Part shown: positions 1 to 55,926 of the stretch, in pieces
Position numbering within the stretch: position 1 is the first letter of the stretch
How the letters are laid out: every line of letters starts with the position of its first letter
Source: an uncultured Alphaproteobacteria bacterium
Lineage (GTDB): Bacteria; Pseudomonadota; Alphaproteobacteria; JAGOMX01
Reading direction: 5' to 3'
DNA: 64,000 bases
NCBI GenBank assembly: GCA_963780985.1
Contig: CAWAEF010000003.1
Location: 110,693 to 174,692 of the forward strand
Made by a program: the position numbers and the translations under genes
Notes under the pieces: generated by a model
Databases searched by the model: none
Seen by the model: only the letters and a program-made list of their open reading frames with translations
Told to the model about the DNA's origin: nothing

Positions 1-708
1 GTTGTACCTACACCTGCAGTCCAACCACCGATTGCCCGACCTGCACCTGTTGTCGTACCTGCACCCGCCATAACAAGGGCACTGCCGCAAGGATTTGATA
101 TAAGAGCATACATAGCAAACAATCCGGACATAACAAGAGACGCCCCAAAGTTTAATATGACTCCAGAAAACTTTGCCATACATCAGTGGAAGACATGGGG
201 TTGGAACGAGGCCCGCGTTTTCCTTGCGCAATTCATGTTCCCACAGGCGTACCTGGATATGTATCCTGATGTACTGGAACTTGCCAAGCTACTGGGTAAG
301 AACCCACTTGTGTATGCCCAAGAGCATTGGTTTACGCGAGGCAGGTATGACGGCACTCAAGGTGAAGGTCGTCTCACCATGGCCGGCCCGTTTGTGAAGC
401 CGGATAATTTCTGTGTGGAAGCATATAGGGCGCTCTATCCCGATATCGATTTCCATGCACCACGCTTTGCTATGCGACCAGATATTTTTGCGATGGTACA
501 ATATATCAAGTGGGGTAAAGCCGAGGGTCGATTGGTGCTATCAAAGCCAATCATTGTTCCGAGTGGGTTTAACACTCAGAGATACATCGAAAAGTACCGC
601 GCAAAGCTTGAAGCCGAGGCAAAGAAATTTCGCGTGCCGGATCTTACCATTTATGCCAAAGCGCAGTACTCCCAATGGGGTGCCAGCGAAGGCCTAAACG
701 ACAAGTAA
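1..708 (+). CDS. C-terminal part of a repeat-family secreted protein. The reading frame is open to window position 1, and a Pro-rich linker is followed by four ~46-aa repeats.
   Basis: The frame of the listed ORF 157..708 stays open back to nt 1 (VVPTPAVQPPIARPAPVVVPAPA...FDIRAYIANNPDITRDAPKFNMTPENFAIHQWKTWG), which is another copy of the repeat. The repeats match those in 867..2510 and 3039..4157. The conserved C-terminus is YAKAQYSQWG. Confidence 0.7.
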   Translation, partial: VVPTPAVQPPIARPAPVVVPAPAITRALPQGFDIRAYIANNPDITRDAPKFNMTPENFAIHQWKTWGWNEARVFLAQFMFPQAYLDMYPDVLELAKLLGKNPLVYAQEHWFTRGRYDGTQGEGRLTMAGPFVKPDNFCVEAYRALYPDIDFHAPRFAMRPDIFAMVQYIKWGKAEGRLVLSKPIIVPSGFNTQRYIEKYRAKLEAEAKKFRVPDLTIYAKAQYSQWGASEGLNDK

Positions 709-2510: not shown

Positions 2511-2634
2511 AGCTTCTTGCCAGGTGGCCTTGTGCTTAAACAAGGCTCTTGTGCAAATCGAATGGGTAAAGGGTGATCAGTATGCTAAGCTGAACATGAG
2601 TGAGGGTAATTGCCATGCGAATTTTCCCCGCTCC

Positions 2635-2866
2635 CGTCATCCTGAACGGACGACCGCGAAGCGGGCGGGAGAGAAGGGTCCAGTCAGACATGTGTCGCGA
2701 AGCGACTCTGATGTAGATGGTCCCACTCATCTTGTTCAACGTCAAATGGACAGCTGGTTGTTTCGTTTGAATATTGGATATATTTTTAAGCAGAGTCGCT
2801 TCGCGACACGTGTTTAACTGGATCCTTCTCTACCGCCCGCTTCGCGGTCGTCCATTCAGTATGACG
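2635..2866. repeat. MITE-like palindromic element, family A, copy 1 (~232 bp with ~76-bp terminal inverted repeats).
   Basis: Left arm cgtcatcctgaacggacgaccgcgaagcgggcgggagagaagggtccagtcagacatgtgtcgcgaagcgactctg. Right arm is its near-perfect reverse complement ending ...cagtatgacg. A second full copy lies at 32349..32571. Confidence 0.7.
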
Positions 2867-3038
2867 TCTGCCAGGGGCAAAAGATTACATCCAGCCCACA
2901 CGTTTCGCTTAAGAGCCATAAACAAACAATCTGTTATACATAAAGCTTTGTTAGCGCTTAACTATATCTTGACAAAACAGAATGAAACAATGTATAAATT
3001 CAATACTGTATCTTTTTTTTATTTAGTAAGGTTAGACA

Positions 3039-4157
3039 ATGATTAAAACTGTTCGTTACTTTATTATCCTTCTGGCTTTTTCCGCCCAAGCCTATGGGTC
3101 TAATTTGATTGAGGAACTAGCTCCCCATACGGCTAAGTTTGCCAGGTTTATGGATAATCCGCCTCTTAACCCCTTCAATCCTCAAAGTATTCATGCATTT
3201 AACCGCTTAGCTAGGCCCTTTGCCGAATTTTTGCGGCTGAGTAACACTATACTTATGACTGAAGATCCTTTAAGTCCTCGACAGATCCTGGACCAACTGT
3301 CCGTCCTGCGTGTGGCTCATAACTATCCGGACCACATAGAAGAAGCCTTAGAACAGATCCGTGTCTATATTGCTGCTGGCAGCGATTATGATGCGGAAAC
3401 CAACATGAACTTAAATTATCTACTCCGCACCGTCTGGAGTTATATGCAGAACGATGGGCCCGAAGCTTTGGAAGGTAATTTAAGCGAACTATTCTTCTAC
3501 GTAGGACAAAACGTCTACGAGGGAGGCGGATGCTTCCCAGGTCATGTGGGACGACTGATGTTCCTGAACGGCCTTCATGTCCTGAGAAATCATCGTGCTC
3601 AGATGGAGTATCTCGGGCTGCCATACCCTATACTCGAGGAGGAGCCCCGAAGGCCGCCCATAGGGAATTTACCACGGAAGATCACGAAGCACCTGCCGCG
3701 CGGATTTCATGCACAGGCATACATAGACATGTATCCGGATATCATCAGGGACGCACCGCGCTTCAAGATGGACCCGTTCACCTTCGCGGCCTTTCAGTAC
3801 GTGAAGTGGGGCCGGTCAGAAAATAGAATCTATCTGACATGCCCTTTAGATGTGCCAGCTGACTTCAACGCCGAGGCCTATTGCTTGATGTATCCAGACG
3901 TCGAACAAAATGCTAAAAAATACTGCATGCAGCCCCTCATCTTCGCCAGAGTTCAGTATTTTCTTTGGGGTAGACAGAAGGGAAGACTATGCCTTACCAA
4001 GCCTATTGTCGTACCTGATGATTTTAATGCGGAACAATACTTACACAACCACCCCCGTATGTACGAAGAGGCTAAAAGATTCGGCGTTGAACCCTTAATT
4101 TACGCTATGGCTCAGTATTCCCAGTGGGGTAAGGACGAAAAGAATAGTTACAAGTAA
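3039..4157 (+). CDS. Secreted repeat-family protein (unique N-terminal domain plus three C-terminal family repeats).
   Basis: Signal peptide MIKTVRYFIILLAFSAQAYG. Repeats FHAQAYIDMYPDIIRDAPRFKMDPFTFAAFQYVKWGR..., FNAEAYCLMYPDV..., FNAEQYLHNHP..., ending YAMAQYSQWGKDE. Confidence 0.8.
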   Translation: MIKTVRYFIILLAFSAQAYGSNLIEELAPHTAKFARFMDNPPLNPFNPQSIHAFNRLARPFAEFLRLSNTILMTEDPLSPRQILDQLSVLRVAHNYPDHIEEALEQIRVYIAAGSDYDAETNMNLNYLLRTVWSYMQNDGPEALEGNLSELFFYVGQNVYEGGGCFPGHVGRLMFLNGLHVLRNHRAQMEYLGLPYPILEEEPRRPPIGNLPRKITKHLPRGFHAQAYIDMYPDIIRDAPRFKMDPFTFAAFQYVKWGRSENRIYLTCPLDVPADFNAEAYCLMYPDVEQNAKKYCMQPLIFARVQYFLWGRQKGRLCLTKPIVVPDDFNAEQYLHNHPRMYEEAKRFGVEPLIYAMAQYSQWGKDEKNSYK

Positions 4158-26549: not shown

Positions 26550-26689
26550 AATTTTTCTCCTATGCTATTGAAGGCAAACTCCTGTCTTCGGAATTCAAGA
26601 TACTCCATTGGCGTATATTTTGAAGTCTAATCTCAGCAAAATACAGGGCCTACTCATGAAAACGAAGCATATGAAGGGAAACACGTAGC

Positions 26690-26826
26690 TGCCAGCTTGC
26701 CTCCCCTTGATGCGCAGGGGTCCAGCCCTTAAAATGTGCTGCGTAGCAGCTCCGAAGAAAATACAGAGTCGCTACGCGACGCATTTTGCGCTGGACCCCT
26801 GCTTTCGCAGGGGAGACAAGCTGGAG
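26690..26826. repeat. MITE-like palindromic element, family B, copy 1 (~135 bp with nested hairpins).
   Basis: ccagcttgcctccccttgatgcgcaggggtccagccc...gagtcgctacgcgacgcattttgcgctggacccctgctttcgcaggggagacaagctgg. Three more copies lie at 34.1, 35.4 and 41.7 kb. Confidence 0.65.
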
Positions 26827-26878
26827 CTTTGTGCACTTTTAATTTTTATGCGTAGGCGCTGTAGCAAAATGCCCCATC

Positions 26879-32282: not shown

Positions 32283-32348
32283 GTTTAACCCCTCACCATA
32301 ATGGTGTATAGAATAGAATGGGATAGAATAGAACAAGCCCCAAGCAGA

Positions 32349-32571
32349 CGTCATCCTGAACGGACAAACCGGCAGCGGGCGGTAGTGAAGGATCCAGTCA
32401 GACATGCGTCGCGTAGCGACTCTGTTATAAATATACCCAACATACAACTGAAACAACCAGCTGTCTAAATTACCTTAAAATGGGACCATCCACAGCAGAG
32501 TCGCTTCGCGACGCATTTATAACTGGATCCTTCTCTCCCGCCCGCTTCGCAGTCGTCCGTTCAGGATGACG
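32349..32571. repeat. MITE-like palindromic element, family A, copy 2 (~223 bp).
   Basis: cgtcatcctgaacggacaaaccggcagcgggcggtagtgaaggatccagtcagacatgcgtcgcgtagcgactctg ... cagagtcgcttcgcgacgcatttataactggatccttctctcccgcccgcttcgcagtcgtccgttcaggatgacg. Confidence 0.7.
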
Positions 32572-33170
32572 GGGGACTGGGGGTATTTTTCCTTGCTAGC
32601 TATCCTCACTTGAGTTCAACTTAGTATGCCCATTACCCACTTGTTTTACATAAGAGCCATAAGTTGAAACTCTAAAGATCGTTAATCGGAATTAAATCCT
32701 CAAAGGCACATTCGTTCAGGAAATTCTCGTATATCAATCCACACATGCGTTCGTTCTGCAGCGCCAGCATGACGGCTGCGCCTGTAATAATATTGTCATG
32801 AACTCCCGATGCGTCCAGTTCAGGCAGAGATGCCTCTAACGTGCCATCTTCCCTCAGGATGATAGCGGCGTCATAGGGCCCCAAATGGAGCGACTTCGGA
32901 ATTTTGTGTATCATTTCTTACGTCTTCCCAGCTCGAGTAATTTTCAATGACCGCCGTGCCTATACGCCCCACCGGGAGCATCATCGGTTATGATGGCCCT
33001 TTAGAAAAACCTCCGTTTTTTCTTGAATCTACTATGGTAATAACGTAAACCTTTTACGCGGCCTTATTTGCTTTTATTTTTTCCGCGTCTAAGTCCAATG
33101 CCTGCAACAGCTCACGCAGACTCTCGTGGGCTCATGCCGGTTTCCATTTGATCGAGGGGCTCTCCCGCGA

Positions 33171-34019
33171 TTAAACGGCGAATAATATCGACACCCTGTT
33201 GTACACACGAACACCATTGAAATGATACTTCATAAATGCTTCGTAAGTATAGGGGGTCCATTTTTTTAAAACTTCGACCATGGCCAAAGCATATACCTGG
33301 ATTTCGTATTGAGCATGACTGTCCGCACGCAAACTCAAGAAATGCAACAGGTTGTGTAGATCGATCTTCCAGTAGAATTCCGTATAAAAATTCACGGGCA
33401 GGTTCATGCGCGCCAACTCACGGGCCAAAGATGGCTTGGACTCGTCGAGGATGATGCCCTCCTCGTCCGTGTTAATCATTTCACGGTAGTTATCATAAGC
33501 TTGCACCGCATCGGTTTTTAACATGTCCAGAATCTTCGCCGCCTCCTCGGGCGCCAAAATCTGATCGCGACCCTGACGATTTGAGCTGGATTGTTGTGCT
33601 AAAACACTGGGGTGAGGAAGGTAGAATTCATCTTGCACAATAGAATAACGAGCAGAATACTCGTTCACATTGGCTGTCCGGTGCCGCAGCCACTGACGGG
33701 CCACGAATATGGGAGTCTTGATGTGGAATTTAATCTCACACATCTCAAAAGGCGTCGTGTGACGGTGCCGCAGCAAATAGTTGATGAGGCCCCTGTCCTC
33801 GTTAATCTTTTTAGTTCCTTTGCCGTAGGAAACGCGGGCGGCCTGGACGATGGCGCTATCGTCACCCATATAATCGATGACCCGGACGAAACCGTGGTCC
33901 AGCAAAGGGATGGGCTCAAACAGAATTTCCTCAAGCGCCGGCACGGTCGCTCGTTTTGTCTGATAGGTCTCAGCCATTTGTTGGGAAATTTCAGCCTTTT
34001 GCTGGTCGTTCATTGCCAT
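33171..34019 (-). CDS. thyX: Flavin-dependent thymidylate synthase.
   Basis: ThyX signature [15 protein letters not shown] (RHR-x7-S-x-RY), 282 aa. Confidence 0.8.
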
Positions 34020-34090
34020 CGATAACTCCGTTTATATTTTATTTAAAATAACTACACTTTTTCAAAAGGGTGATAGGACGTAAACAGTCT

Positions 34091-34219
34091 CCAGCTGCTT
34101 CCCCTGGATGCGCAGGGGTCCAGCGCAAAATGCGTCGCGCAGCGACTCCTACTCAATTCGGAGCTGCTACGCAGCACATTATTAGGCCTGGACCCCTGCG
34201 CATCCAGGGGAGGCAGCGG
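34091..34219. repeat. MITE-like palindromic element, family B, copy 2.
   Basis: ccagctgcttcccctggatgcgcaggggtccagcgcaaaatgcgtcgcgcagcgactcc...ggagctgctacgcagcacatt...cctggacccctgcgcatccaggggaggcagcgg. Confidence 0.6.
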
Positions 34220-34451
34220 GTGACAAACGTCACTCCACCACCCTTCGAGTCAATTCTCACACTTACCGTCATTCAAGCACAGCTGGACAACAATTCCAAC
34301 TAGTTTTATATATATAGATAGGGGCGCTAGTTATCTCGTTTTTTTGCTAATCTTTTCTGACTCTTCCCTTGCAATTTCTTAAGAAAACATTATATAATAT
34401 ATATGTCAGGAAACTGACTATGGCGATAAACGTCTTATGGAATAGGCGATG

Positions 34452-34790
34452 TGGACCCGGGGGCGGTACCCGGCGCCTCCACCAAAAATGGTCACGATGT
34501 GACCCTTTCTGTGGGGGCGAAATAGGATCGACACGCGTAATAAAGATATGATTTTTGCTCGGTAGGCACCACCGTTATCGGACCATTGTTATAAGTGCAA
34601 ACTTTAACTTTAAAAACTTGGCTATGGGTCAGGATAATTTCGCTACTGCAGCTGCAGCCGCTTAATTGTTAGACTAAGCCAGCGGTCGGGGGCGCCGGGC
34701 AACAGAAAGCCCCCACTTATTTATGTGCCTGCCCAAGGGGAAGTTAATAACGCCCGAGTGGGCGGCACTGTTATATGCGAACTAAAGAGT
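34452..34790 (+). ncRNA. ssrA: Circularly permuted (two-piece) tmRNA gene. The acceptor piece ends in CCA at 34481-34484, a ~28-nt intervening hairpin follows, and the coding piece starts with GGGGGCG at 34513. The 3' boundary is approximate.
   Basis: The 5' GGGGGCG (34513-34519) pairs with the upstream CGCCUCC+ACCA to give a 7-bp acceptor stem with a G3·U70 wobble (the Ala identity element). T-stem CCGGG/CCCGG. AGGATCGAC resembles the conserved GGAUUCGAC. An in-frame tag ORF ...(A)NFNFKNLAMGQDNFATAAAAA ends at TAA 34663-34665. The SspB-like gene follows immediately. Confidence 0.55.
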
Positions 34791-34801
34791 GAGGGTTAGC
34801 T

Positions 34802-35281
34802 GTGGACAGCTTGGATTACGATCAACTGATACAAGAAGCACTTCGCGATGTGGTGCGCAAGACTTTACAGACGGTCTCGAAAAAGGGGCTGCCTGGCAAT
34901 CATCATTTCTATATTACATTCCGAACCGATCGCAACGATGTTGTTATGCCAGAATACTTGCGTGACCAACATCCTGATGAAGTGACCGTTGTTCTACAGC
35001 ACCAATTTTGGGACCTGAACATCGATAACGCCTCCTTCAGCGTGACGCTCAGCTTTAATGGCCATCATGAAAGACTGGTGATCCCTTACGGTGCGCTGGT
35101 CAGCTTTATGGATCCATCGGTTAAGTTTGGCCTGCAATTCACACCAGAAGAGCCCGCGGCAGGCAAGCCAACGCCTCCTCACAATGGTGATGACGACAAT
35201 GCTCACCTGAAGCAGCCAGGCGTAAAGACAGACAACATTGTGACGCTTGCTTCCTTCCGGAACGATAAAAAGAAGAAGTAA
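34802..35281 (+). CDS. sspB: SspB-like ClpXP specificity-enhancing adaptor for ssrA-tagged proteins (GTG start).
   Basis: HFYITFRTDRNDVVMPEYLRDQHPDEVTVVLQHQFWDLNIDNASFSVTLSFNGHHERLVIPYGALVSFMDPS aligns with the SspB substrate-binding domain. Acidic linker and basic C-terminal tail (NDKKKK) resemble the ClpX-binding tail. Confidence 0.65.
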   Translation: MDSLDYDQLIQEALRDVVRKTLQTVSKKGLPGNHHFYITFRTDRNDVVMPEYLRDQHPDEVTVVLQHQFWDLNIDNASFSVTLSFNGHHERLVIPYGALVSFMDPSVKFGLQFTPEEPAAGKPTPPHNGDDDNAHLKQPGVKTDNIVTLASFRNDKKKK

Positions 35282-35410
35282 GGTATAATTCAAATAAGCA
35301 GCCGGCGGTTTAAAATCGCCGGCTGTTTTATTTTGGGTGTTATACACCACCGCACTGGGTTGCCCCGAAGCTGCGCTTCTTCTGATGACCAAAAGGCTCA
35401 AGGGGTAGTG

Positions 35411-35555
35411 ATCGCCACCAGCTGCCTCCCCTGCGAAAGCAGGGGGCCAGCGCAAAATGCGTCGCGTAGCGACTCTGTGCTTCTATATAGAGCTGCTTCG
35501 CAGCGCATGTTAAGAGCTGGACCCCTGCTTTCGCAGGGGAGGCAGCTGGTGGCGA
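35411..35555. repeat. MITE-like palindromic element, family B, copy 3.
   Basis: tcgccaccagctgcctcccctgcgaaagcagggggccagcgcaaaatgcgtcgcgtagcgactctg...gctgcttcgcagcgcatgttaagagctggacccctgctttcgcaggggaggcagctggtggcga, a perfect long palindrome. Confidence 0.65.
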
Positions 35556-35676
35556 TTACTACCCCAACAACCTACCGGTCATTTTGTAAAATCGACCCCT
35601 ACAGGGGTTGTCGGTTACTCGCAATGACAGGCTGGAGGAATTTGGCTAGCCTTGCTACATCTGCTGGGCAAACTAC

Positions 35677-36132
35677 CTATAAACTATACCCACCATTGAT
35701 ATAATGGATGAGATCATTAATTTCCTGCACGTGAGATCTGTGCTGAGCACTGAGCCATTTGGTAAGATCGCCTACGGAGATCATTCCCATCAGCACCGAG
35801 TCTTCCATTATGGGCAGGTGCCGGATCCGCTTTTCCGTCATAATGGACATGGCTTCTTCGATGGTTGTATCTGGATCCACGCATATAACGTCTCGATTCA
35901 TAACTTCTGATACTTTGGTTTTTTCTGGGTCTAGCTTTTGGGCGACAATCTTCATCAAAACATCACGCTCTGAGAATATACCCACAATGCGGCCTTCCTC
36001 CATGATCAGCAAGCACCCAATGCGGGACTCTTTCATCAATACGACACAGTCATAAACAGTATCCGTAGGCTTACCCGTGACAATGTGGAATCCCTTGCCC
36101 TTTAGTAACTCACCTAAAACAGTGTGAATCAT
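35677..36132 (-). CDS. CBS-domain pair protein.
   Basis: Two CBS motifs (GCLLIMEEGRIVGIFSERDVL and HLPIMEDSVLMGMISVGDL), 151 aa. Confidence 0.75.
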   Translation of the reverse strand: MIHTVLGELLKGKGFHIVTGKPTDTVYDCVVLMKESRIGCLLIMEEGRIVGIFSERDVLMKIVAQKLDPEKTKVSEVMNRDVICVDPDTTIEEAMSIMTEKRIRHLPIMEDSVLMGMISVGDLTKWLSAQHRSHVQEINDLIHYINGGYSL

Positions 36133-36316
36133 AGCTTTCTCCCAGAACCCTTATACTACTATTGTAATGCGGAGAGATTAAGAAAGGGTAAAACTATTGT
36201 TTTACCGATATATTTGGTCACCACCTCTATCATTTCTCAGTATTTTTTACGGTTGCACAGCGTCACACCATTGAGTAAGGTTACCTCGTTAAACAGATAA
36301 CCGATGGGAGTTCCTC

Positions 36317-37357
36317 ATGTTAAGAAAGACATCAAATCTATTGGCCAGTTGGTATTTACCGGCCGCAAAAACCGTAAAGATCGCTGCCCTGACTGGGCTT
36401 GTGCTTGCTTCCCTACCGGAAGCAAATGCATGCAGGCTGCTGCGTGCTGAGGGCGCCGCCGTGGCGCGCACTTCCGCCTTTACGGGGACGACAACCCATG
36501 TTGCAAGACCTACAACACTTGTACAGGCTCGGACCTATGCTACCGGTAGAACCATGCTTAACAGAAACTGGACTACGGTACTAAAAGCCACACTCGCCAC
36601 AAGCACCATGGCTGGGATGGCAGCTTTAGCCGAAGCAGATAAGGGACCCGCTAACGAACTGCCATTTCTCTCGGCTGCACAAGCCGAACTTTTAAAGACA
36701 GCACAAATTATCGGAGAAGATAAATTTTTCTCCGAAGACGTCATAAAGCTGATGGAGAAGCAAAAAAGAACTTTTGTCTGTCATTTGTTGGCAGATAAGC
36801 GCCCAATCATGCTAAGCAGATTCGAAGTGCCCAAAACCAACGAGGCAGATCGGGGCTTCAGGCACTTTTCTTTCTATCCCCGCACGGGGGACTTCCGAGT
36901 AATCAATGAGATATTGATTGTAGGACAAGAGGGCCATTCCGGCTATACGCACAACGGTCCTTACGTAGACGTTTGGGTACAGCTGAACACAAAAAATTGG
37001 AATGAATTTCAAAAAGCTTCATTTGAACGTTTCTACCCTTATAATCCGCTTAGAAAACAAGGCGACATGAGCGAGATGGCCTATATGGATGGACAAGATT
37101 TAGCCATCATGCAGCTTTTTCTAAGCCAAGATCCTGACATGGTCTACATTAAGTTAGCTTATAATCCCTTATTTTATAAGGAGAAAAACTGCATTGCTAA
37201 CTTTGCACTTTTCGGGGCACTGAGTGAGGATGCTGCCAGACTACTCATGGCACAAATAGCTTTTGAGGCAGACCTCGCAAAAGGAAAACGCGCCCGCGCG
37301 GAGGAACTACAGGTTGCACTTTTGGAACTCACAAGTTCCCTAAGATCCAAGAAGTAA
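36317..37357 (+). CDS. Secreted hypothetical protein.
   Basis: Signal peptide with Ala-rich N-terminus. 346 aa. A weak copy of the 19-bp box lies upstream at 36236-36254. Confidence 0.55.
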   Translation: MLRKTSNLLASWYLPAAKTVKIAALTGLVLASLPEANACRLLRAEGAAVARTSAFTGTTTHVARPTTLVQARTYATGRTMLNRNWTTVLKATLATSTMAGMAALAEADKGPANELPFLSAAQAELLKTAQIIGEDKFFSEDVIKLMEKQKRTFVCHLLADKRPIMLSRFEVPKTNEADRGFRHFSFYPRTGDFRVINEILIVGQEGHSGYTHNGPYVDVWVQLNTKNWNEFQKASFERFYPYNPLRKQGDMSEMAYMDGQDLAIMQLFLSQDPDMVYIKLAYNPLFYKEKNCIANFALFGALSEDAARLLMAQIAFEADLAKGKRARAEELQVALLELTSSLRSKK

Positions 37358-37527
37358 AATACACACATCCGCAACGCCGGGGATAACTTTCCCCGGCCAC
37401 GGGTAACCGCTGATGGGCCTTGTAGGCATCATCCCTTCTACTGACGCTATAACCGATTTTCTTGACATTTTTGCATAAACACACCATATGAAGACAGAGG
37501 CTTGATTAGTCTTTTGTTGGGGAATTT

Positions 37528-48471: not shown

Positions 48472-50670
48472 ATGTTGAAGAGTTCGTATAGGTTGCTGTC
48501 TGCCGTAAGTCTGGCGGCTTTTGTGGGTGCGGAGGTAAGTTGGGCCTCGAGAGAGTCCCATGAGGATGAGGTGCCCGTGGTGGGACAGCTTGCGCTTTCT
48601 CTTCTCGAGTCCCCGCCTGCAAGTCCGAGATGGCCTTCTGTTACCAAGCGTCTGCGTGATGAAGAGTTTGGTGCTCTCAAGCGTCTCAGCTATGAAGAAG
48701 CTGTTGTAAAAGCATATCCCCGACTGCCGAGCAGTGATGTTTGTCGGCTGACAGAACAGCTCATGAGAGAGGTTGGCGAGCCTGATGCTGATCTGAACTT
48801 TTATATCCCCTTTGCCTTGGAAACTATAATTATGCATGAGTTACCCATTGGGCCTTATGTGAATGGTATCGGACAGGCTAAGAAGTACATCAAAAAAGGT
48901 CATTCCATCTATGATGCGGTTTTGCGAGTACAAACCAGATATGAAAGACGCAGACTGAAGAATGAGTATCGTTATCTTGAGGAGGCCGTCTTTAAAAAAA
49001 TGGCGGAGTTGCGTACGTCTACGCAAATGGATGAAAAAGCAGCGCTGTTGGCGGCTCTAGATCCGTTTCCCTTCCAACGAGAGAGTGAAGATGACTGGTC
49101 TGTATGGCCCCTTGTTACACCTGACCCAAATGACACAAGCACCGGAACTTTTCTTGCAAAAGCGATTCTGGAAGAAAAGAAGTCCGTGCTTACCGCGTTT
49201 GCGGAATTTTGCATCATGAAAGACATTGAATGGCTTGGGCTGCCGGAAGAAGAAGCAAAGAATATGTCCGCATATGCTCGTGAATTTCATCCATCACAAC
49301 CTTTTTTCGCTAAGGTGTTATGTACGTATCTCATGGATCAAGGCCTTTACCCATATCTCATAAAGCTCACCGTTGATGAGGTGATCAAAGAACATTCCGT
49401 CGCTGCCGTGTTGCATAAGCATAGACGAGAAGTTTTTCGTCGCCTCTGGCGGGGTCTCACGGACGCCCAAGTATCTCGTTTTTCAGAACTGGATGATGTC
49501 AAACACATGAATCCAAAAATCTGTTTCTTGTACTATATGGACAATGTCGATGACTACCGTAAGCGATTAGATTTGAGTACATTCCTGTTAAAGGAATTGA
49601 GGGCGGAACTAGCTAGTGAGGTTGTTAGTCATGTGTCCTCTAATCTCAAAAGGGGATATGCCCTAGAGGAATCCTTAAAACGAGCCCCCTTCTGTCATGG
49701 TTTTTTCACTGACAATTGTGACGAAATGCGAAAAAAATGGGACTTTACTGAGCATGGTTCCCAACATTCCTTTTTACGCTTGATGGAAGAGGCAGCTAAT
49801 CTTACCTATGACAAGCTGCGAGAGGACTATGAGAAGGGCGTCAATAGGACATTAGGCTTCCGCCTTGCGATAGAGAAAATTGGTCAATTCGCGCCGCCGC
49901 ATCCTTTAATCCAGGAAACACTGGTTCTTCGCAAGCTTTATTACGACGCAATTTATCGACGGATGATGGGAGAGGACCGCGGATGGATCACCGGTAGGGA
50001 CTGGATTGGCAACCAAGTGGAAAGTGATCGCCTTGTTTTTATTCAGAACGTGGCGAACAATAAAACAATGATTGCCAATAAATTTGCGGCACATATGACC
50101 CAGGTGCCTTATGAACAGGTAAAAAGAGGTATCGATGTGAATGCCCGCCTCGTCTGGTATAACTGCTTTGGCAGTGGGTTGGTTGGTGATTCTGAAGGGG
50201 CTGAGAGAGTGTTGACTGAATTGATGGTCGTTGAATTTGTCTTGTGGTTACAAACCATGACCGACCCCTACTCTACCGTCTTGAAATTAATCTCTAATGA
50301 TTTTAAGGAAGCCTTTACAGCCACATTTGGTTTTTGGTACCAGCACTTATATTCGACCGAAATAACCGGCATGGACATGTTAACTCCAGCCACCGTGGGA
50401 GCCTTCGGGGAAGGTATAGCAAAGCACATGCTTGAAAAGCGTGTTATGGGTTATAGCGAGGCAAGACGTGAGGTTTACAAGAATATGTTGGAGACCCGTT
50501 CGGAGCTGCAACAGGAGTACACTTATATGCCTTATGAGACCATTAAAGATTTGGCCATGACAAAGGTTCTTGGTATTAGTTCATGCTCTGATCCAACACC
50601 TGCAGGCTTTAACGCACAACTGGCGAAAGCAAAGGCGCTGTATCCGGCTCCGGCTGAGATGCCAAAGTAA
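48472..50670 (+). CDS. Secreted hypothetical protein (732 aa).
   Basis: Signal peptide LLSAVSLAAFVGAEVSWA. Long ORF with no recognisable catalytic motif. Confidence 0.65.
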   Translation: MLKSSYRLLSAVSLAAFVGAEVSWASRESHEDEVPVVGQLALSLLESPPASPRWPSVTKRLRDEEFGALKRLSYEEAVVKAYPRLPSSDVCRLTEQLMREVGEPDADLNFYIPFALETIIMHELPIGPYVNGIGQAKKYIKKGHSIYDAVLRVQTRYERRRLKNEYRYLEEAVFKKMAELRTSTQMDEKAALLAALDPFPFQRESEDDWSVWPLVTPDPNDTSTGTFLAKAILEEKKSVLTAFAEFCIMKDIEWLGLPEEEAKNMSAYAREFHPSQPFFAKVLCTYLMDQGLYPYLIKLTVDEVIKEHSVAAVLHKHRREVFRRLWRGLTDAQVSRFSELDDVKHMNPKICFLYYMDNVDDYRKRLDLSTFLLKELRAELASEVVSHVSSNLKRGYALEESLKRAPFCHGFFTDNCDEMRKKWDFTEHGSQHSFLRLMEEAANLTYDKLREDYEKGVNRTLGFRLAIEKIGQFAPPHPLIQETLVLRKLYYDAIYRRMMGEDRGWITGRDWIGNQVESDRLVFIQNVANNKTMIANKFAAHMTQVPYEQVKRGIDVNARLVWYNCFGSGLVGDSEGAERVLTELMVVEFVLWLQTMTDPYSTVLKLISNDFKEAFTATFGFWYQHLYSTEITGMDMLTPATVGAFGEGIAKHMLEKRVMGYSEARREVYKNMLETRSELQQEYTYMPYETIKDLAMTKVLGISSCSDPTPAGFNAQLAKAKALYPAPAEMPK

Positions 50671-52783: not shown

Positions 52784-54226
52784 ATGGTAAAGAATTCACA
52801 TAAATTTTTGTCCATCGCATGCCTGGCTTTGGGCCTTTTCGGTGAGGTCCAAGCAACGGATGAATTTCCTTACCTCGTCGCCGGGGGACGTGGGTCACCG
52901 TTCTCTCCGCCGCATTTTAGTGACAGGGATGATGTGATTTCTTTTCTGGATGATCATCTGGACATCAAGGGAATAGGACTGGTTGACCATACGTGTTTCC
53001 CAAAGATGTCTCTGACATTTTTGAACAATTACCCCCATATCAAAACGCTCGTGCTGAATGGAGTTGTGGCAAATCCGGCGGAGTTTGAACTGCATACTTT
53101 GCAGTACATAACGGTTTTTCATAACGGATTGCGCCCGCGGGATGGCCATCGCCATGATCCTATCTGGCAGGGCTTTGGTAACGTGCCAAACCTGGAGAAA
53201 CTGGACACAACACTGGAACACTTTCCATACCTGGGGGAAATGCCTTTCTTGCAGAAACTGCGACTGACTGAGCAAGATACCCATCTGTATGCACCATACA
53301 ATATTCAAAATATCGGTCGCTATAACTTGAGGGAGCTTAGCATTCATGCGGGTCACCTCACAGATATCTCCCCTTTGGGCCAGCTTACTGGGCTTGAGAG
53401 CTTATGGATCTATGGATTCCAGATAACGTCTGAGGGATTTGAATTCCTGCATCAGCTTCGAGCGTTAAAGCTGCTTGAAATTCAAGACAGCCGGCACATG
53501 GATTTATCCATCCTTAAAGGCCACCCCGCTATGGAAACTCTAGTTCTGGACATGGACCCATACTACAAGGAGACCGCTTGCCCGCAAATTTTTGAAACCT
53601 TACCTAGCCTCAAATCACTGACGTTACGGTGGAATTCTTTAAAAGACATCTCCGCTCTATCTGCATGCAAAAAGCTTGAGGTATTAGTACTATACCGCAC
53701 AAAAATCTCATCCCTAGAAGCCCTGCGGGGACTGCCGATCAGACACCTGGATATAAGTCTTTGCAATGTAAAGGATTTATCACCTATATCTGACATGAAA
53801 AGCCTAGAACTTCTAGATATTGTGTGCAACTACCCACACCATTGGGACGGGCTAAAGGCACACCCCTCATTGAGAAGAATCAAAGCGGCTAAGGGTGATT
53901 TGATAAATCCAACTAAAATTGCGGGGAGCGATTATGGCGAAAATGTAACATGGGATTCAAAATACTTTCTAACAGCTGAAAGTAAAAAGTTCATAGAAGA
54001 GTATGATACGAACATCCCCAATATACCGGAAGGCTATCCCCTTGAGGTTCTGAAAACGGTTCCCCATCTAGAAATGATCGTCACAACGTCCCAGGAGATC
54101 ACACCGACTCTTCTTGAAAACTTTAGACAAGCCCGACCGGATGTGGCCGTTGTCGAATGCGGTCCATGGCAGACGGTAGATATTGACTCTATCAGAAAAT
54201 ATGAGGCTGCTGAGGCGAAGAAGTAG
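52784..54226 (+). CDS. Secreted leucine-rich-repeat protein.
   Basis: Signal peptide. LRR units such as LKSLTLRWNSLKDISALSACKKLEVLVLYRTKISSLEAL and LDISLCNVKDLSPISDMKSLELLDI. 480 aa. Confidence 0.7.
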   Translation: MVKNSHKFLSIACLALGLFGEVQATDEFPYLVAGGRGSPFSPPHFSDRDDVISFLDDHLDIKGIGLVDHTCFPKMSLTFLNNYPHIKTLVLNGVVANPAEFELHTLQYITVFHNGLRPRDGHRHDPIWQGFGNVPNLEKLDTTLEHFPYLGEMPFLQKLRLTEQDTHLYAPYNIQNIGRYNLRELSIHAGHLTDISPLGQLTGLESLWIYGFQITSEGFEFLHQLRALKLLEIQDSRHMDLSILKGHPAMETLVLDMDPYYKETACPQIFETLPSLKSLTLRWNSLKDISALSACKKLEVLVLYRTKISSLEALRGLPIRHLDISLCNVKDLSPISDMKSLELLDIVCNYPHHWDGLKAHPSLRRIKAAKGDLINPTKIAGSDYGENVTWDSKYFLTAESKKFIEEYDTNIPNIPEGYPLEVLKTVPHLEMIVTTSQEITPTLLENFRQARPDVAVVECGPWQTVDIDSIRKYEAAEAKK

Positions 54227-54498: not shown

Positions 54499-55803
54499 AT
54501 GGAGTATACGACAATGTTGAAAATAGTACTTAAATTCGCATCCGCACTGAGCTTGTCTTTGTGCTTAAGTATGGGGGCAACGTGGGCATCCGATGAGGAG
54601 AGTAGTGAAGAGCGTATTAGCGAGCCTGCAGCTCAGAAGTCTTGGTCGGATTATAAACGAGAAGACGCAGCTTATTGGGAAAATCGAAGAATACGGGAGC
54701 AGGCAGAGCTAGAGGAATCAAGAAAACCGCCCGTTTTCTTCCGGCGCGTGGTGCTGGAATCCTATCCACACCTACAGGAGGTGGATATTACCCGGATAAT
54801 TGGGTTACTCACTAAGCTTTTAAATCGCAAAGAGCCTGGAGGTATTGTTCATAAAATACCTGAGTCTGGCCATATAGGACACTGGGATGATCACATGGAA
54901 GATGTAATATCTAAGATGTTTGTGAAACAGCTTTGTACGCCTGATAAGTATAATCAATGGAATCATGAATTCATCTGCCGTGACTGCCCGGGTGAAAAAG
55001 CAATGGAATGGTTGAAACAAGGGCATTCCCTAGAACAAGCGGCAAACATGGCCAGCGCCATGAAAGATCAGAGTATTAGCAAGCCTGCAGCTCAGCCTTC
55101 TTCTGGGTCAGCTCATAAACGAGAAGACGATGATTATTGGAAAAAACGAAAAATACAGGAGCAGGCAGAGCTAGAGGAATCAAGAAAACCGCCCGTTTTC
55201 TTCCGGCGCGTGGTGCTGGAATCCTATCCACACCTACAGGAGGTGGATATTACCCGGATAATTGGGATACTCACTGAGCTGTTAAATCGCAAAGTAGAGC
55301 CTAGAGGTACTGTTTATTTCATAGCTAAATCTGGCAGTACAGGACACTGGGACGAAGACATGAAAGGCTTAATATGTGACATATTTGTGAAACAACTTTG
55401 TACGCCAGAGAGATACAATCAATATAATCATGTCACTATCTGCCGTGACTGCCCGGGTATTAAAGCAATGGAATGGTTAAACAAGGGGTATTCCCTAGAA
55501 CAATCGGCAAATATAGCCCGGATCTGGCAGGATCTTCGAATAAGGTTCCCAAAGCTGGAAGATATTGTCACAACATTATGGGCAACGCTATCTGAGCAAA
55601 ACAAGAGTTTGGGAGAAGGTCCTGCGCTTTTGAAAGCGCTCAGCGAAAGCTCTTGGGTAAGGAATCATCAATTGCACCCTGTAGTTAAGCAGCCCGATTT
55701 TAATGATCCTGTAATCGGAAATTATTTCCTCAACAAAATTTTTATTAATGGAAGCTCATATGGCGACGCTTTTCGTGCATACAAAAATGAGATGAATTTT
55801 TAA
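54499..55803 (+). CDS. Secreted protein built from an internal tandem duplication of a ~154-aa Cys-containing unit.
   Basis: Signal peptide. Two units share ...AELEESRKPPVFFRRVVLESYPHLQEVDITRIIG...FVKQLCTP..ICRDCPG.KAMEWL. A ~108-bp tract (54696-54804 and 55157-55266) is 100% identical at the DNA level. Confidence 0.7.
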   Translation: MEYTTMLKIVLKFASALSLSLCLSMGATWASDEESSEERISEPAAQKSWSDYKREDAAYWENRRIREQAELEESRKPPVFFRRVVLESYPHLQEVDITRIIGLLTKLLNRKEPGGIVHKIPESGHIGHWDDHMEDVISKMFVKQLCTPDKYNQWNHEFICRDCPGEKAMEWLKQGHSLEQAANMASAMKDQSISKPAAQPSSGSAHKREDDDYWKKRKIQEQAELEESRKPPVFFRRVVLESYPHLQEVDITRIIGILTELLNRKVEPRGTVYFIAKSGSTGHWDEDMKGLICDIFVKQLCTPERYNQYNHVTICRDCPGIKAMEWLNKGYSLEQSANIARIWQDLRIRFPKLEDIVTTLWATLSEQNKSLGEGPALLKALSESSWVRNHQLHPVVKQPDFNDPVIGNYFLNKIFINGSSYGDAFRAYKNEMNF

Positions 55804-55877
55804 ACGTTCCAAGAGAAAGAAACTAGCGGCTCATATGCAAAACGGGTGGGTCAGATACAACCTTCTCTCCCCCGCAG

Positions 55878-55926
55878 CCGTCATGGTGAACGGACGACCG
55901 GGAAGCGGGAGGTAGGGAAGGATGAC
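55878..55926. repeat. Short remnant related to the MITE family A termini.
   Basis: cgtcatggtgaacggacgaccgggaagcgggaggtagggaaggatgacg carries the cgtcat...atgacg termini and the gaacggacgacc core of family A. Confidence 0.35.

What the first reader, a model, noticed from the sequence alone, without database searches (positions are those of the whole stretch)
34430..35281. Circularly permuted two-piece tmRNA gene with an SspB-like adaptor gene immediately downstream, flanked by MITEs
A tRNA-like 3' end (T-stem CCGGG/CCCGG, acceptor strand CGCCUCC, ACCA at 34481-34484) lies upstream of the matching 5' acceptor strand GGGGGCG at 34513, separated by a ~28-nt hairpin. This is the gene order of permuted ssrA. 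The deduced acceptor stem has the G3·U70 pair required for alanylation. AGGATCGAC resembles the conserved tmRNA 5' box, and a tag ORF ends ...DNFATAAAAA-TAA. The next gene encodes an SspB-family adaptor that delivers ssrA-tagged proteins to ClpXP. Permuted ssrA is best known from alphaproteobacteria, which bears on the taxonomic placement of this host-associated organism. The T-loop (GGCGGUA) is non-canonical, so this needs verification.
Basis: partly seen in the sequence, partly recalled or inferred. Interest (0 to 1): 0.7.

Follow-up and report, generated by a model that had tools for sequence, protein, structure and literature searches.

The report
Ordinary alphaproteobacterial two-piece tmRNA plus SspB

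Summary
The observation and the interpretation both hold. ARAGORN calls a permuted tmRNA at 34392-34756 (+) with the tag ANFNFKNLAMGQDNFATAAAAA. Rfam's alpha_tmRNA model (RF01849) matches over its full length at 235.8 bits (gathering score 50, E=3.7e-67).

The "non-canonical" T-loop GGCGGUA is in fact the family consensus, found in 46 of 59 relatives.

The downstream ORF (34802-35281) is an alpha-type SspB. It matches Pfam PF04386 at 1.6e-42, and its best solved relatives are 2QAS/2QAZ at E~1e-32.

The ssrA→sspB order is not special to this window. 64 of 80 sspB loci from other alphaproteobacterial genomes have a permuted tmRNA directly upstream on the same strand.

The two flanking palindromic repeats are real members of a dispersed MITE-like family. 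They are lineage-specific insertions, absent from the closest relative, and incidental.

The organism groups with Holosporales/Paracaedibacteraceae-like MAGs.

Verdict: a new member of a well-known kind, of low interest. One mildly new side observation: long tags in this clade usually carry two N-x-N motifs.

The parts
34369..34398 (+). sigma-70-like promoter of ssrA: -35 TTGCAA (34369-34374), 18-nt spacer, -10 TATAAT (34393-34398). The predicted transcription start is near 34405.
   Evidence: 10 of 12 matches. The -10 element is conserved in all three aligned relatives; the -35 element is conserved only between the window and L001. The site lies inside RF01849 model positions 1-40. The start site is inferred.
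34405..34484 (+). Acceptor piece of the two-piece tmRNA, about 80 nt if the 5' end is the transcription start. It comprises a leader hairpin GUCAG-GAAA-CUGAC (34405-34418), the 3' strands of the long P2-type helices from 34422, the T-arm (34457-34473), the 3' acceptor strand CGCCUCC (34474-34480) and an encoded ACCA (34481-34484).
   Evidence: Rfam alignments with structure lines, direct reading and the regex survey. The size is comparable to the 82-nt piece seen by Northern blot in S. meliloti (PMC2245857). The ends are inferred.
34485..34512 (+). Intervening segment of 28 nt, excised during maturation, containing the hairpin GGUCAC-GAU-GUGACC (34490-34504).
   Evidence: The spacer is 5-66 nt long (median 20) in 59 relatives. 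Excision is inferred from the family (review PMC3985003).
34513..34717 (+). Coding piece of the tmRNA: the 5' acceptor strand GGGGGCG (34513-34519), the box AAAUAGGAUCGAC, the 5' strands of the P2 helices, the tag frame, and the conserved 3' hairpin GGGGGC...GCCCCC-ACU. ARAGORN extends the gene to 34756.
   Evidence: RF01849 ends at 34717; ARAGORN ends at 34756. The 3' end has not been mapped.
34597..34665 (+). Tag reading frame: resume codon GCA, 22 codons encoding ANFNFKNLAMGQDNFATAAAAA, then the stop codon TAA.
   Evidence: ARAGORN. The resume codon aligns to the consensus UAUAAuUGCaAAC with high posterior probability. An identical tag occurs on an independent metagenome contig, L104.
34802..35281 (+). 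sspB, encoding an alpha-type ClpXP adaptor of 159 aa with a GTG start. The C-terminal tail is NIVTLASFRNDKKKK.
   Evidence: PF04386 at 1.6e-42. PDB 2QAS 7e-33, 2QAZ 4e-31, 2NYS 4e-30. There are 6392 homologues. The conserved C-terminal motif (I/V)(V/I)TL..FR is visible in the alignment.
35296..35328 (+). Intrinsic terminator after sspB: a 15-bp stem with 8 G-C pairs, followed by TATTTT.
   Evidence: Only sub-threshold terminator-like Rfam matches were found here.
34087..34224 (+). Upstream MITE-like palindromic repeat, about 140 nt with 37-nt arms that are 92% complementary. It is inserted between thyX and the ssrA promoter.
   Evidence: It folds at -55.5 kcal/mol with z=-10.0. It is absent at the homologous site of relative L001.
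35385..35582 (+). Downstream MITE-like palindromic repeat, about 200 nt with 67-nt arms that are 87% complementary. It has the same orientation as the upstream copy and lies after the sspB terminator.
   Evidence: It folds at -86.2 kcal/mol with z=-15.7.

Best explanation
This is the organism's functional ssrA gene in the circularly permuted, two-piece form typical of Alphaproteobacteria, followed by its partner gene sspB.

Proposed mechanism:
1. Transcription starts at a sigma-70-type promoter near 34405 and yields a precursor in which the acceptor piece (ending in the encoded CCA at 34484) lies upstream of the coding piece (starting at G34513).
2. The 28-nt spacer is removed. By analogy with the family, this is RNase P cleavage at G34513 plus 3' trimming to the CCA.
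3. The two RNAs stay base-paired through the 7-bp acceptor stem and the long P2-type helices, forming a tRNA-Ala-like domain with G3·U70.
4. After alanylation, and together with SmpB, the RNA enters stalled ribosomes. Translation resumes on GCA at 34597 and appends ANFNFKNLAMGQDNFATAAAAA.
5. The alpha-type SspB encoded 85-130 nt downstream binds the Asn-containing part of the tag, most likely the C-proximal QDNF. It tethers the substrate to ClpX through its C-terminal tail, while ClpX engages the terminal Ala-Ala.

What is shown here: sequence and structure membership of the RNA, family membership of SspB, and conservation of the gene order. What is inferred: processing sites, co-transcription, alanylation, tag binding and degradation.

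The flanking MITE-like repeats are secondary intergenic insertions with no role in the system.
For: - RF01849 alpha_tmRNA scores 235.8 bits against a gathering score of 50, over model positions 1-355 of 355. RF04321 tmRNA_permuted scores 145.6 bits.
- ARAGORN reports a permuted tmRNA with an intact tag frame.
- The acceptor stem pairs 7 of 7 positions with G3·U70. The same holds in 59 of 59 relatives, with compensatory changes: CGCCTCC/GGGGGCG, CGTCTCC/GGGGACG, CACCTCC/GGGGGTG and CATCTCC/GGGGATG.
- The T-loop GGCGGTA is the family consensus.
- There is a promoter-like site upstream and a terminator only after sspB.
- SspB matches PF04386 at 1.6e-42 and is homologous to the solved alpha SspB structures. 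Its C-terminal motif is conserved.
- A permuted tmRNA lies directly upstream of sspB, on the same strand, in 64 of 80 genomes. The median gap is 26 nt, measured on the 57 ARAGORN-positive loci.
- The thyX-ssrA-sspB...CBS gene order is kept in the closest genome, which lacks the MITEs.
- The identical tag is found on an independent contig.
- Two-piece processing and function of this family are documented in the literature (PMC3985003). Northern blot sizes of 82 and 204 nt were reported for S. meliloti (PMC2245857).
Against: - There are no RNA-level data for this organism, so the processing sites, the piece sizes and ssrA-sspB co-transcription are inferences.
- The tag departs from the canonical alpha tag ANDNFAxxxAVAA. 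Its first motif is NFN rather than NDN, its second is QDN, and it ends in AAAAA. SspB recognition of this particular tag is therefore untested.
- smpB, clpX and clpP were not looked for in the window.
- 16 of 80 sspB loci lack an adjacent ssrA, so the linkage is common but not obligatory.
Confidence: 0.94

Rival explanations
1. ssrA and sspB are functional but only neighbours. On this view sspB has its own promoter and is not co-transcribed with ssrA, so the adjacency is historical rather than mechanistic.
For: A weak promoter-like site (TTTAAA/TTAAAA ... GATAAT, 9 of 12 matches) lies inside the tag region at 34609-34638. The conserved 3' hairpin GGGGGC...GCCCCC, followed by a moderately T-rich stretch, could terminate ssrA transcripts. 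16 of 80 sspB loci have no ssrA upstream.
Against: The order and strand are conserved in 64 of 80 genomes across several alphaproteobacterial groups. The gap is very short: median 26 nt on the 57 ARAGORN-positive loci, and sometimes overlapping ARAGORN's 3' boundary. The only clear intrinsic terminator follows sspB.
Confidence: 0.25
2. The tmRNA gene is a decaying relic or pseudogene in a reduced, host-associated genome.
For: The tag is atypical for the canonical alpha consensus, with NFN and QDN in place of NDN. Mobile repeats have inserted on both sides.
Against: The covariance-model match is full length, and its score falls within the range of relatives (197-251 bits). The acceptor stem, G3·U70, the CCA, the resume codon, the in-frame stop and the promoter are all intact. 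The tag length of 22 aa equals the clade median. The same tag occurs on a second contig.
Confidence: 0.03
3. The two same-orientation MITE copies delimit a mobile or recombinogenic ssrA-sspB cassette.
For: The copies are in direct orientation, 1327-1329 nt apart, and bracket exactly ssrA plus sspB.
Against: The thyX-ssrA-sspB order is the same in the closest genome, which has no MITE at the upstream site. The ssrA-sspB pair is ancestral across the class. The repeat is dispersed over at least 31 other contigs with unrelated neighbours. The outer parts of the two copies differ.
Confidence: 0.03

Closest known systems
Two-piece (circularly permuted) tmRNA of Alphaproteobacteria: Rfam RF01849 alpha_tmRNA. 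The Caulobacter crescentus and Sinorhizobium meliloti ssrA genes are the studied examples (Keiler, Shapiro & Williams 2000, as cited in PMC3985003; PMC2245857).
   Same: The gene order is the same: acceptor piece, CCA, spacer, coding piece. It also shares the T-arm with the GGCGGUA loop, the acceptor stem with G3·U70, the AAAUAGGAUCGAC box, a resume codon GCA-AAC, the conserved 3' hairpin, and predicted piece sizes of about 80 and 205-245 nt against 82 and 204 nt in S. meliloti.
   Different: The tag is 22 aa rather than 10-14. It has an N-terminal extension (ANFNFKNLAMG) in front of a canonical-looking C-terminal part (QDNFATAAAAA), and Asp is missing from the first N-x-N motif. These traits are shared with Holosporales/Paracaedibacteraceae-like relatives.
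Alpha-type SspB (SspB-alpha) of Caulobacter crescentus, PDB 2QAS/2QAZ, and Agrobacterium AGR_C_3712p, PDB 2NYS. Function described by Lessner et al. 2007 as cited in PMC3985003. The organism assignment of the PDB entries is from my memory.
   Same: It has the same Pfam family (PF04386) and clear sequence homology over the whole substrate-binding domain (residues 2-131, E=7e-33). A flexible linker is followed by the conserved C-terminal (I/V)(V/I)TL..FR tail. The gene sits directly downstream of ssrA.
   Different: The tail ends in NDKKKK instead of the commoner KK. It does not reach the NCBIfam equivalog for gamma/beta-type SspB (16.7 against 135 bits), as expected for the alpha subtype. Its cognate tag differs from the Caulobacter tag.
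Other permuted tmRNA lineages (a beta-proteobacterial group and cyanobacteria; PMC3985003).
   Same: They share the permuted gene order and two-piece maturation, and the window matches the general model RF04321 tmRNA_permuted at 145.6 bits.
   Different: The alpha-specific model is the best in the clan and scores 90 bits more than the general model. The SspB relatives are all alphaproteobacterial.
Small palindromic non-autonomous repeats (MITE-like elements) of host-associated bacteria, for example Rickettsia palindromic elements. This comparison is from memory only.
   Same: They are 140-200 nt long, nearly perfect long hairpins, non-coding, multi-copy, located mostly between genes, and show presence/absence differences between relatives.
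   Different: No sequence match to any Rfam family. No target-site duplication or partner transposase was identified here. The family appears restricted to this organism or population.

Membership tests
alpha two-piece tmRNA (RF01849) | Covariance-model score at or above the curated gathering score, over the full model | tested here: met
   235.8 bits against 50, model positions 1-355 of 355, E=3.7e-67. Best family of clan CL00001.
alpha two-piece tmRNA (RF01849) | Permuted gene order: the 3' acceptor strand plus CCA lies upstream of the 5' acceptor strand | tested here: met
   CGCCTCC-ACCA at 34474-34484 precedes GGGGGCG at 34513-34519. ARAGORN flags tmRNA*. RF04321 scores 145.6 bits.
alpha two-piece tmRNA (RF01849) | 7-bp acceptor stem with the G3·U70 alanine identity pair | tested here: met
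   7 of 7 positions pair, with G34515 opposite T34478. G3·U70 is present in 59 of 59 relatives, with compensatory changes at stem positions 5 and 6.
alpha two-piece tmRNA (RF01849) | T-arm with the family-typical loop | tested here: met
   CCGGG-GGCGGTA-CCCGG is identical to the model consensus and is found in 46 of 59 relatives.
alpha two-piece tmRNA (RF01849) | Tag frame that begins at an Ala resume codon, ends in hydrophobic Ala-Ala and is closed by a stop codon | tested here: met
   GCA at 34597 through to ...AAAAA-TAA at 34665.
alpha two-piece tmRNA (RF01849) | Maturation into two base-paired RNAs; alanylation; SmpB-dependent trans-translation | not testable with these tools
   Needs RNA and biochemical data. 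Inferred from the family (PMC3985003; PMC2245857).
SspB, alpha subtype (PF04386) | Pfam SspB domain above the gathering score | tested here: met
   145.6 bits against 27, E=1.6e-42, residues 9-131.
SspB, alpha subtype (PF04386) | Closest to the solved alpha-type SspB proteins rather than the gamma/beta-type | tested here: met
   2QAS 7e-33, 2QAZ 4e-31 and 2NYS 4e-30. No E. coli or Haemophilus SspB chain appeared at E<=1. The NCBIfam gamma-type equivalog NF008769 scores only 16.7 against 135 bits.
SspB, alpha subtype (PF04386) | Conserved C-terminal tail after a variable linker (the ClpX-tethering peptide) | tested here: met
   NIVTLASFR aligns with the consensus DNVVTLDxFRKK. F152 and R153 are invariant and L149 nearly invariant across 20 sequences. 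The ClpX-binding role is inferred.
SspB, alpha subtype (PF04386) | Binds the cognate ssrA tag and stimulates ClpXP degradation | not testable with these tools
   Needs biochemistry.
ssrA-sspB gene pair of Alphaproteobacteria | A permuted ssrA immediately upstream of sspB on the same strand | tested here: met
   In the window the gap is 45-84 nt. 64 of 80 genome loci show the same arrangement.
MITE-like repeat | Short, non-coding, with long terminal inverted repeats | tested here: met
   Arms of 37 nt (92% complementary) and 67 nt (87% complementary). Fold z-scores of -10.0 and -15.7.
MITE-like repeat | Multi-copy and dispersed in the genome | tested here: met
   4 copies in the window, with 0 expected by chance. 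The exact 20-nt core occurs 38 times on 31 metagenome contigs, 29 of them from one sample.
MITE-like repeat | Insertion polymorphism against an empty site in a relative | tested here: met
   About 180 nt extra in the window between thyX and the conserved upstream block, absent from L001.
MITE-like repeat | Target-site duplication and a cognate transposase | not tested
   The element ends differ between copies. No target-site duplication could be read with confidence, and no transposase search was made.

The most novel reading that the evidence does not exclude
The tag is unusual in architecture, not in kind. In the Holosporales/Paracaedibacteraceae-like clade to which this organism belongs, tmRNA tags are long (18-32 aa). 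30 of 37 distinct long tags carry two N-x-N motifs, against 2.8 expected from shuffles (maximum 8 in 2000 shuffles).

In long tags the last motif sits at about the same distance from the C-terminus (median 13 residues) as the single motif does in short canonical tags (median 11). The window's tag fits this pattern: ANFN near the start, and QDN 11 residues from the end.

The most novel reading is that these are bipartite tags offering two adaptor-binding sites to the dimeric alpha SspB, giving avidity or a two-step hand-off. This would be a variant of tag-adaptor recognition that I did not find described in the searched literature.

The dull alternative is that the N-terminal AN.N is kept only by RNA-level constraints around the resume codon, and that only the C-proximal motif is read by SspB.
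Probability: 0.25. Interest if true: 0.4.

Novelty: new member of a known kind. Interest (0 to 1): 0.15.

Why it matters
It matters mainly for annotation.
- It gives the correct tmRNA gene, tag sequence and SspB gene for an uncultured Holosporales-like alphaproteobacterium.
- It confirms the class-level placement of the organism.
- It shows that the ssrA-sspB pair is a widely conserved unit in Alphaproteobacteria (64 of 80 genomes).

It does not open a new question about trans-translation. The only forward-looking point is the clade-wide pattern of long, double-motif tags. That pattern could be used to test how alpha SspB reads tags and how the spacing between the adaptor site and the ClpX site is tuned.

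Tried and rejected
- **Primary papers.** I tried to read Lessner 2007 (DOI and PMC1797230), Keiler 2000 (PMC16621) and Sharkady & Williams 2004 (PMC516066). None is held. Statements about them therefore rest on the review PMC3985003, on PMC2245857 and on my memory.
- **Published note on adjacency or double-motif tags.** Literature searches for an explicit statement of ssrA-sspB adjacency or of double-motif tags found nothing specific. PMC2245857 does report that both genes flanking tmRNA are conserved in alphaproteobacteria.
- **ARAGORN alone for the synteny survey.** It undercounts: it missed 7 permuted tmRNAs that cmscan found. The count was corrected from 57 to 64 of 80.
- **My acceptor-stem regex.** It missed 5 loci that do have tmRNAs (L005, L021, L044, L050, L082). 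cmscan confirmed all five, so the figure of 59 is a lower bound.
- **MITEs as a known RNA family.** No Rfam match even at E<=1.
- **MITEs in relatives.** None was found in the 82 loci from other genomes.
- **A stable RNA structure between the coding piece and sspB.** Rejected; the fold of 34660-34805 is no better than shuffles (z=-0.8).
- **One-piece tmRNA, pseudogene and mobile cassette.** All considered and rejected; see the rival explanations.
Full report
**Observation**

I read 34000-36200.
- T-arm: CCGGG (34457-34461), loop GGCGGTA, CCCGG (34469-34473).
- 3' acceptor strand CGCCTCC (34474-34480), followed by an encoded ACCA (34481-34484).
- 28-nt spacer (34485-34512) with the hairpin GGTCAC-GAT-GTGACC.
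- 5' acceptor strand GGGGGCG (34513-34519). The two strands form seven pairs, with G3 opposite U70.
- AGGATCGAC at 34524-34532.
- Tag frame ending ...DNFATAAAAA-TAA at 34665.

**tmRNA-aware tools**

ARAGORN finds exactly one RNA gene in the 64-kb window. It is a permuted tmRNA (tmRNA*) at 34392-34756 (+), with the tag ANFNFKNLAMGQDNFATAAAAA encoded at 34597-34665.

Rfam's alpha_tmRNA model RF01849 matches 34365-34717 over all 355 model positions. The score is 235.8 bits against a gathering score of 50, with E=3.7e-67. The general tmRNA_permuted model RF04321 gives 145.6 bits. Relatives score 197-251 bits on RF01849, so this copy is a typical intact member.

The loop is identical to the RF01849 consensus. 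It occurs in 46 of 59 relatives that I parsed.

In those 59 relatives G3·U70 is invariant. The acceptor stem shows compensatory double changes: CGCCTCC/GGGGGCG, CGTCTCC/GGGGACG, CACCTCC/GGGGGTG and CATCTCC/GGGGATG. The spacer ranges from 5 to 66 nt.

**Expression signals**

A sigma-70-like promoter lies just upstream: TTGCAA, 18 nt, TATAAT at 34369-34398. The -10 element is conserved in all three aligned relatives, and the -35 element is conserved between the window and L001.

A start near 34405 would give an acceptor piece of about 80 nt. The coding piece, from G34513 to the conserved 3' hairpin (34717 by Rfam, 34756 by ARAGORN), would be about 205-245 nt. In Sinorhizobium meliloti the two pieces run at 82 and 204 nt on Northern blots (PMC2245857).

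The review PMC3985003 summarises that the permuted precursor is matured into two base-paired RNAs, probably with RNase P and a 3' processing enzyme, and that the Caulobacter two-piece RNA functions in trans-translation. Processing in this organism is therefore inferred, not shown.

**The downstream gene**

The ORF at 34802-35281 (GTG start, 159 aa) matches Pfam SspB PF04386 at 1.6e-42. Its best solved relatives are 2QAS (7e-33), 2QAZ (4e-31) and 2NYS (4e-30). From memory, the first two are the Caulobacter SspB-alpha structures and the third is an Agrobacterium homologue.

The ORF does not reach the NCBIfam equivalog for the gamma/beta-type SspB (16.7 against 135 bits). That fits the alpha subtype.

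An alignment with 19 homologues shows the conserved binding domain, a variable linker and a conserved C-terminal tail. The consensus is DNVVTLDxFRKK, and the window has NIVTLASFRNDKKKK. I interpret the tail as the ClpX-tethering peptide.

The only clear intrinsic terminator is after sspB, at 35296-35328. The segment between the coding piece and sspB has no significant structure. Read-through from the ssrA promoter into sspB is plausible but unproven.

**Is the adjacency special?**

No. I scanned one genome per species for SspB relatives and checked the 80 best loci.
- ARAGORN finds a permuted tmRNA ending just before sspB, on the same strand, in 57 loci.
- cmscan adds 7 that ARAGORN missed.
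- The total is 64 of 80.

The median gap between ARAGORN's 3' end and the sspB match is 26 nt, over the 57 ARAGORN-positive loci.

The genomes include Caedibacter, Paracaedibacter, Odyssella, Finniella and Holosporales MAGs. They also include Rhizobium, Stellaceae and Rhodospirillales MAGs, plus a 5'-truncated tmRNA match in a Dongiaceae MAG. The pair is therefore a class-wide conserved unit.

PMC2245857 had already noted that both genes flanking tmRNA are conserved among alphaproteobacteria.

**Who is the organism?**

The closest SspB proteins (73-99% identical) come from metagenomes and from "Alphaproteobacteria bacterium" MAGs. At about 50-54% identity come Caedibacter, Holosporales, Odyssella and Finniella.

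The closest genome is JBGSQK01, GCA_041738135.1. It keeps the order acyltransferase, two hypothetical genes, thyX, ssrA, sspB ... CBS-domain gene, as in the window.

A JGI contig, Ga0182030_10012538 (L104), carries the same tag and the same repeat spacing.

The window is about 45-49% G+C. It holds ordinary chromosomal genes such as polA and RND pumps, together with large ORFs that have no Pfam match, an LRR protein and a DUF2608-containing 1768-aa protein. This is compatible with a host-associated lifestyle but was not tested further.

**The repeats**

The two flanking elements are real. The upstream copy (34087-34224) has 37-nt arms, and the downstream copy (35385-35582) has 67-nt arms. As single strands they fold far better than shuffles, with z=-10.0 and z=-15.7.

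The 20-nt core CCAGCGCAAAATGCGTCGCG occurs four times in the window, with 0 expected by chance. It occurs 38 times on 31 metagenome contigs, 29 of them from one sample. It does not occur in 82 loci from other genomes.

The upstream copy is an insertion relative to the closest genome. About 180 extra bases sit between the thyX start and a conserved block upstream of the ssrA promoter.

The elements match no Rfam family, even at E<=1.

They are MITE-like intergenic insertions and are incidental to ssrA-sspB. I did not establish a target-site duplication or a transposase.

**Side observation on the tag**

The tag is 22 aa, longer than the canonical alpha tags of 10-14 aa, but it equals the median of the 58 tags in my survey.

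Among distinct tags of 18 aa or more, 30 of 37 carry two N-x-N motifs, against 2.8 expected from composition-preserving shuffles (maximum 8 in 2000). In long tags the last motif lies a median of 13 residues from the C-terminus, against 11 for the single motif of short tags.

The window's tag fits this pattern. ANFN is at the start, and QDNFATAAAAA at the end looks like a complete canonical tag with N changed to Q.

Two readings remain open. Both motifs may be read by the dimeric SspB, or the first may be kept for RNA-level reasons near the resume codon. I found no paper addressing this in the held library.

**Verdict**

This is the standard alphaproteobacterial two-piece ssrA gene with its standard neighbour sspB, in an uncultured Holosporales-like bacterium, bracketed by lineage-specific MITE-like insertions. 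It is a new member of a known kind and of low interest. Its value is for annotation and for the modest tag-architecture question.

Noticed in passing
window 34597-34665; loci L003-L082 (tags listed): Long tmRNA tags (18-32 aa) in Holosporales/Paracaedibacteraceae-like genomes usually contain two N-x-N motifs: 30 of 37 distinct long tags, against 2.8 expected from shuffles. The last motif keeps the canonical distance to the C-terminus. The window tag has ANFN plus a degenerate QDN.
   Followed up: partly
window 2626-2877, 32340-32582, 55870-55921: A second palindromic repeat family (families D6-D8). It shares the internal core G(C/T)GTCGCGNAGCGACTC with the MITE family that flanks ssrA (8 core matches in the window). 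This suggests two related sub-families of one element.
   Followed up: partly
window 26689-26834 (-) and 41694-41840 (-): Two further copies of the same MITE-like family as the ssrA-flanking copies, in the opposite orientation and with different outer sequences.
   Followed up: partly
window ~34266-34310: A block, AAGCACAGCTGGACA..CCAACTAGTTTTATATATATA, about 100 nt upstream of the ssrA promoter. It is conserved in the window, L001 and L004, although the surrounding intergenic DNA is not. It may be a shared regulatory site or the divergent thyX promoter.
   Followed up: no
window ~34728-34782: About 50 extra bases between the tmRNA 3' hairpin and the sspB ribosome-binding site, compared with the closest genome L001. 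No significant fold was found.
   Followed up: partly
L001 4484-7346, compared with window 35282-35676: In the closest genome a 100-aa ORF and a cytochrome P450 gene lie between sspB and the CBS-domain gene. The window has only the terminator and the MITE there.
   Followed up: no
window 54640-55518 (inside ORF 54499-55803): A tandem duplication with a period of about 462-465 nt (79-93% identity) inside a 434-aa ORF with no Pfam match.
   Followed up: no
window 157-708, 867-2510, 3039-4157: Three neighbouring ORFs on the same strand. The 3' (C-terminal) coding ends of all three form one direct-repeat family (D5; 64-70% nucleotide identity to the reference copy). A second repeat (D3) links the interiors of the second and third ORFs. 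The second ORF has no Pfam match. This looks like a local paralogue family.
   Followed up: no
window 36317-40384, 42026-47332, 48472-50670, 52784-54226: A run of large ORFs with no Pfam match or only effector-like domains: DUF2608 in a 1768-aa protein, and leucine-rich repeats. This is compatible with a host-associated lifestyle.
   Followed up: no
loci L022, L030, L032, L036, L046, L062, L078: ARAGORN missed seven permuted tmRNAs, one of them cut by a contig end. Rfam RF01849 finds them at 135-230 bits, so ARAGORN alone undercounts two-piece tmRNAs.
   Followed up: yes
loci L015, L064, L070, L075 and 12 others: 16 of 80 sspB loci have no ssrA upstream. Two have tRNA-His (L064, L075) and one has tRNA-Met (L015) in that position, and L070 has a tRNA-Met just downstream of sspB. 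The ssrA-sspB linkage has therefore been broken repeatedly.
   Followed up: partly
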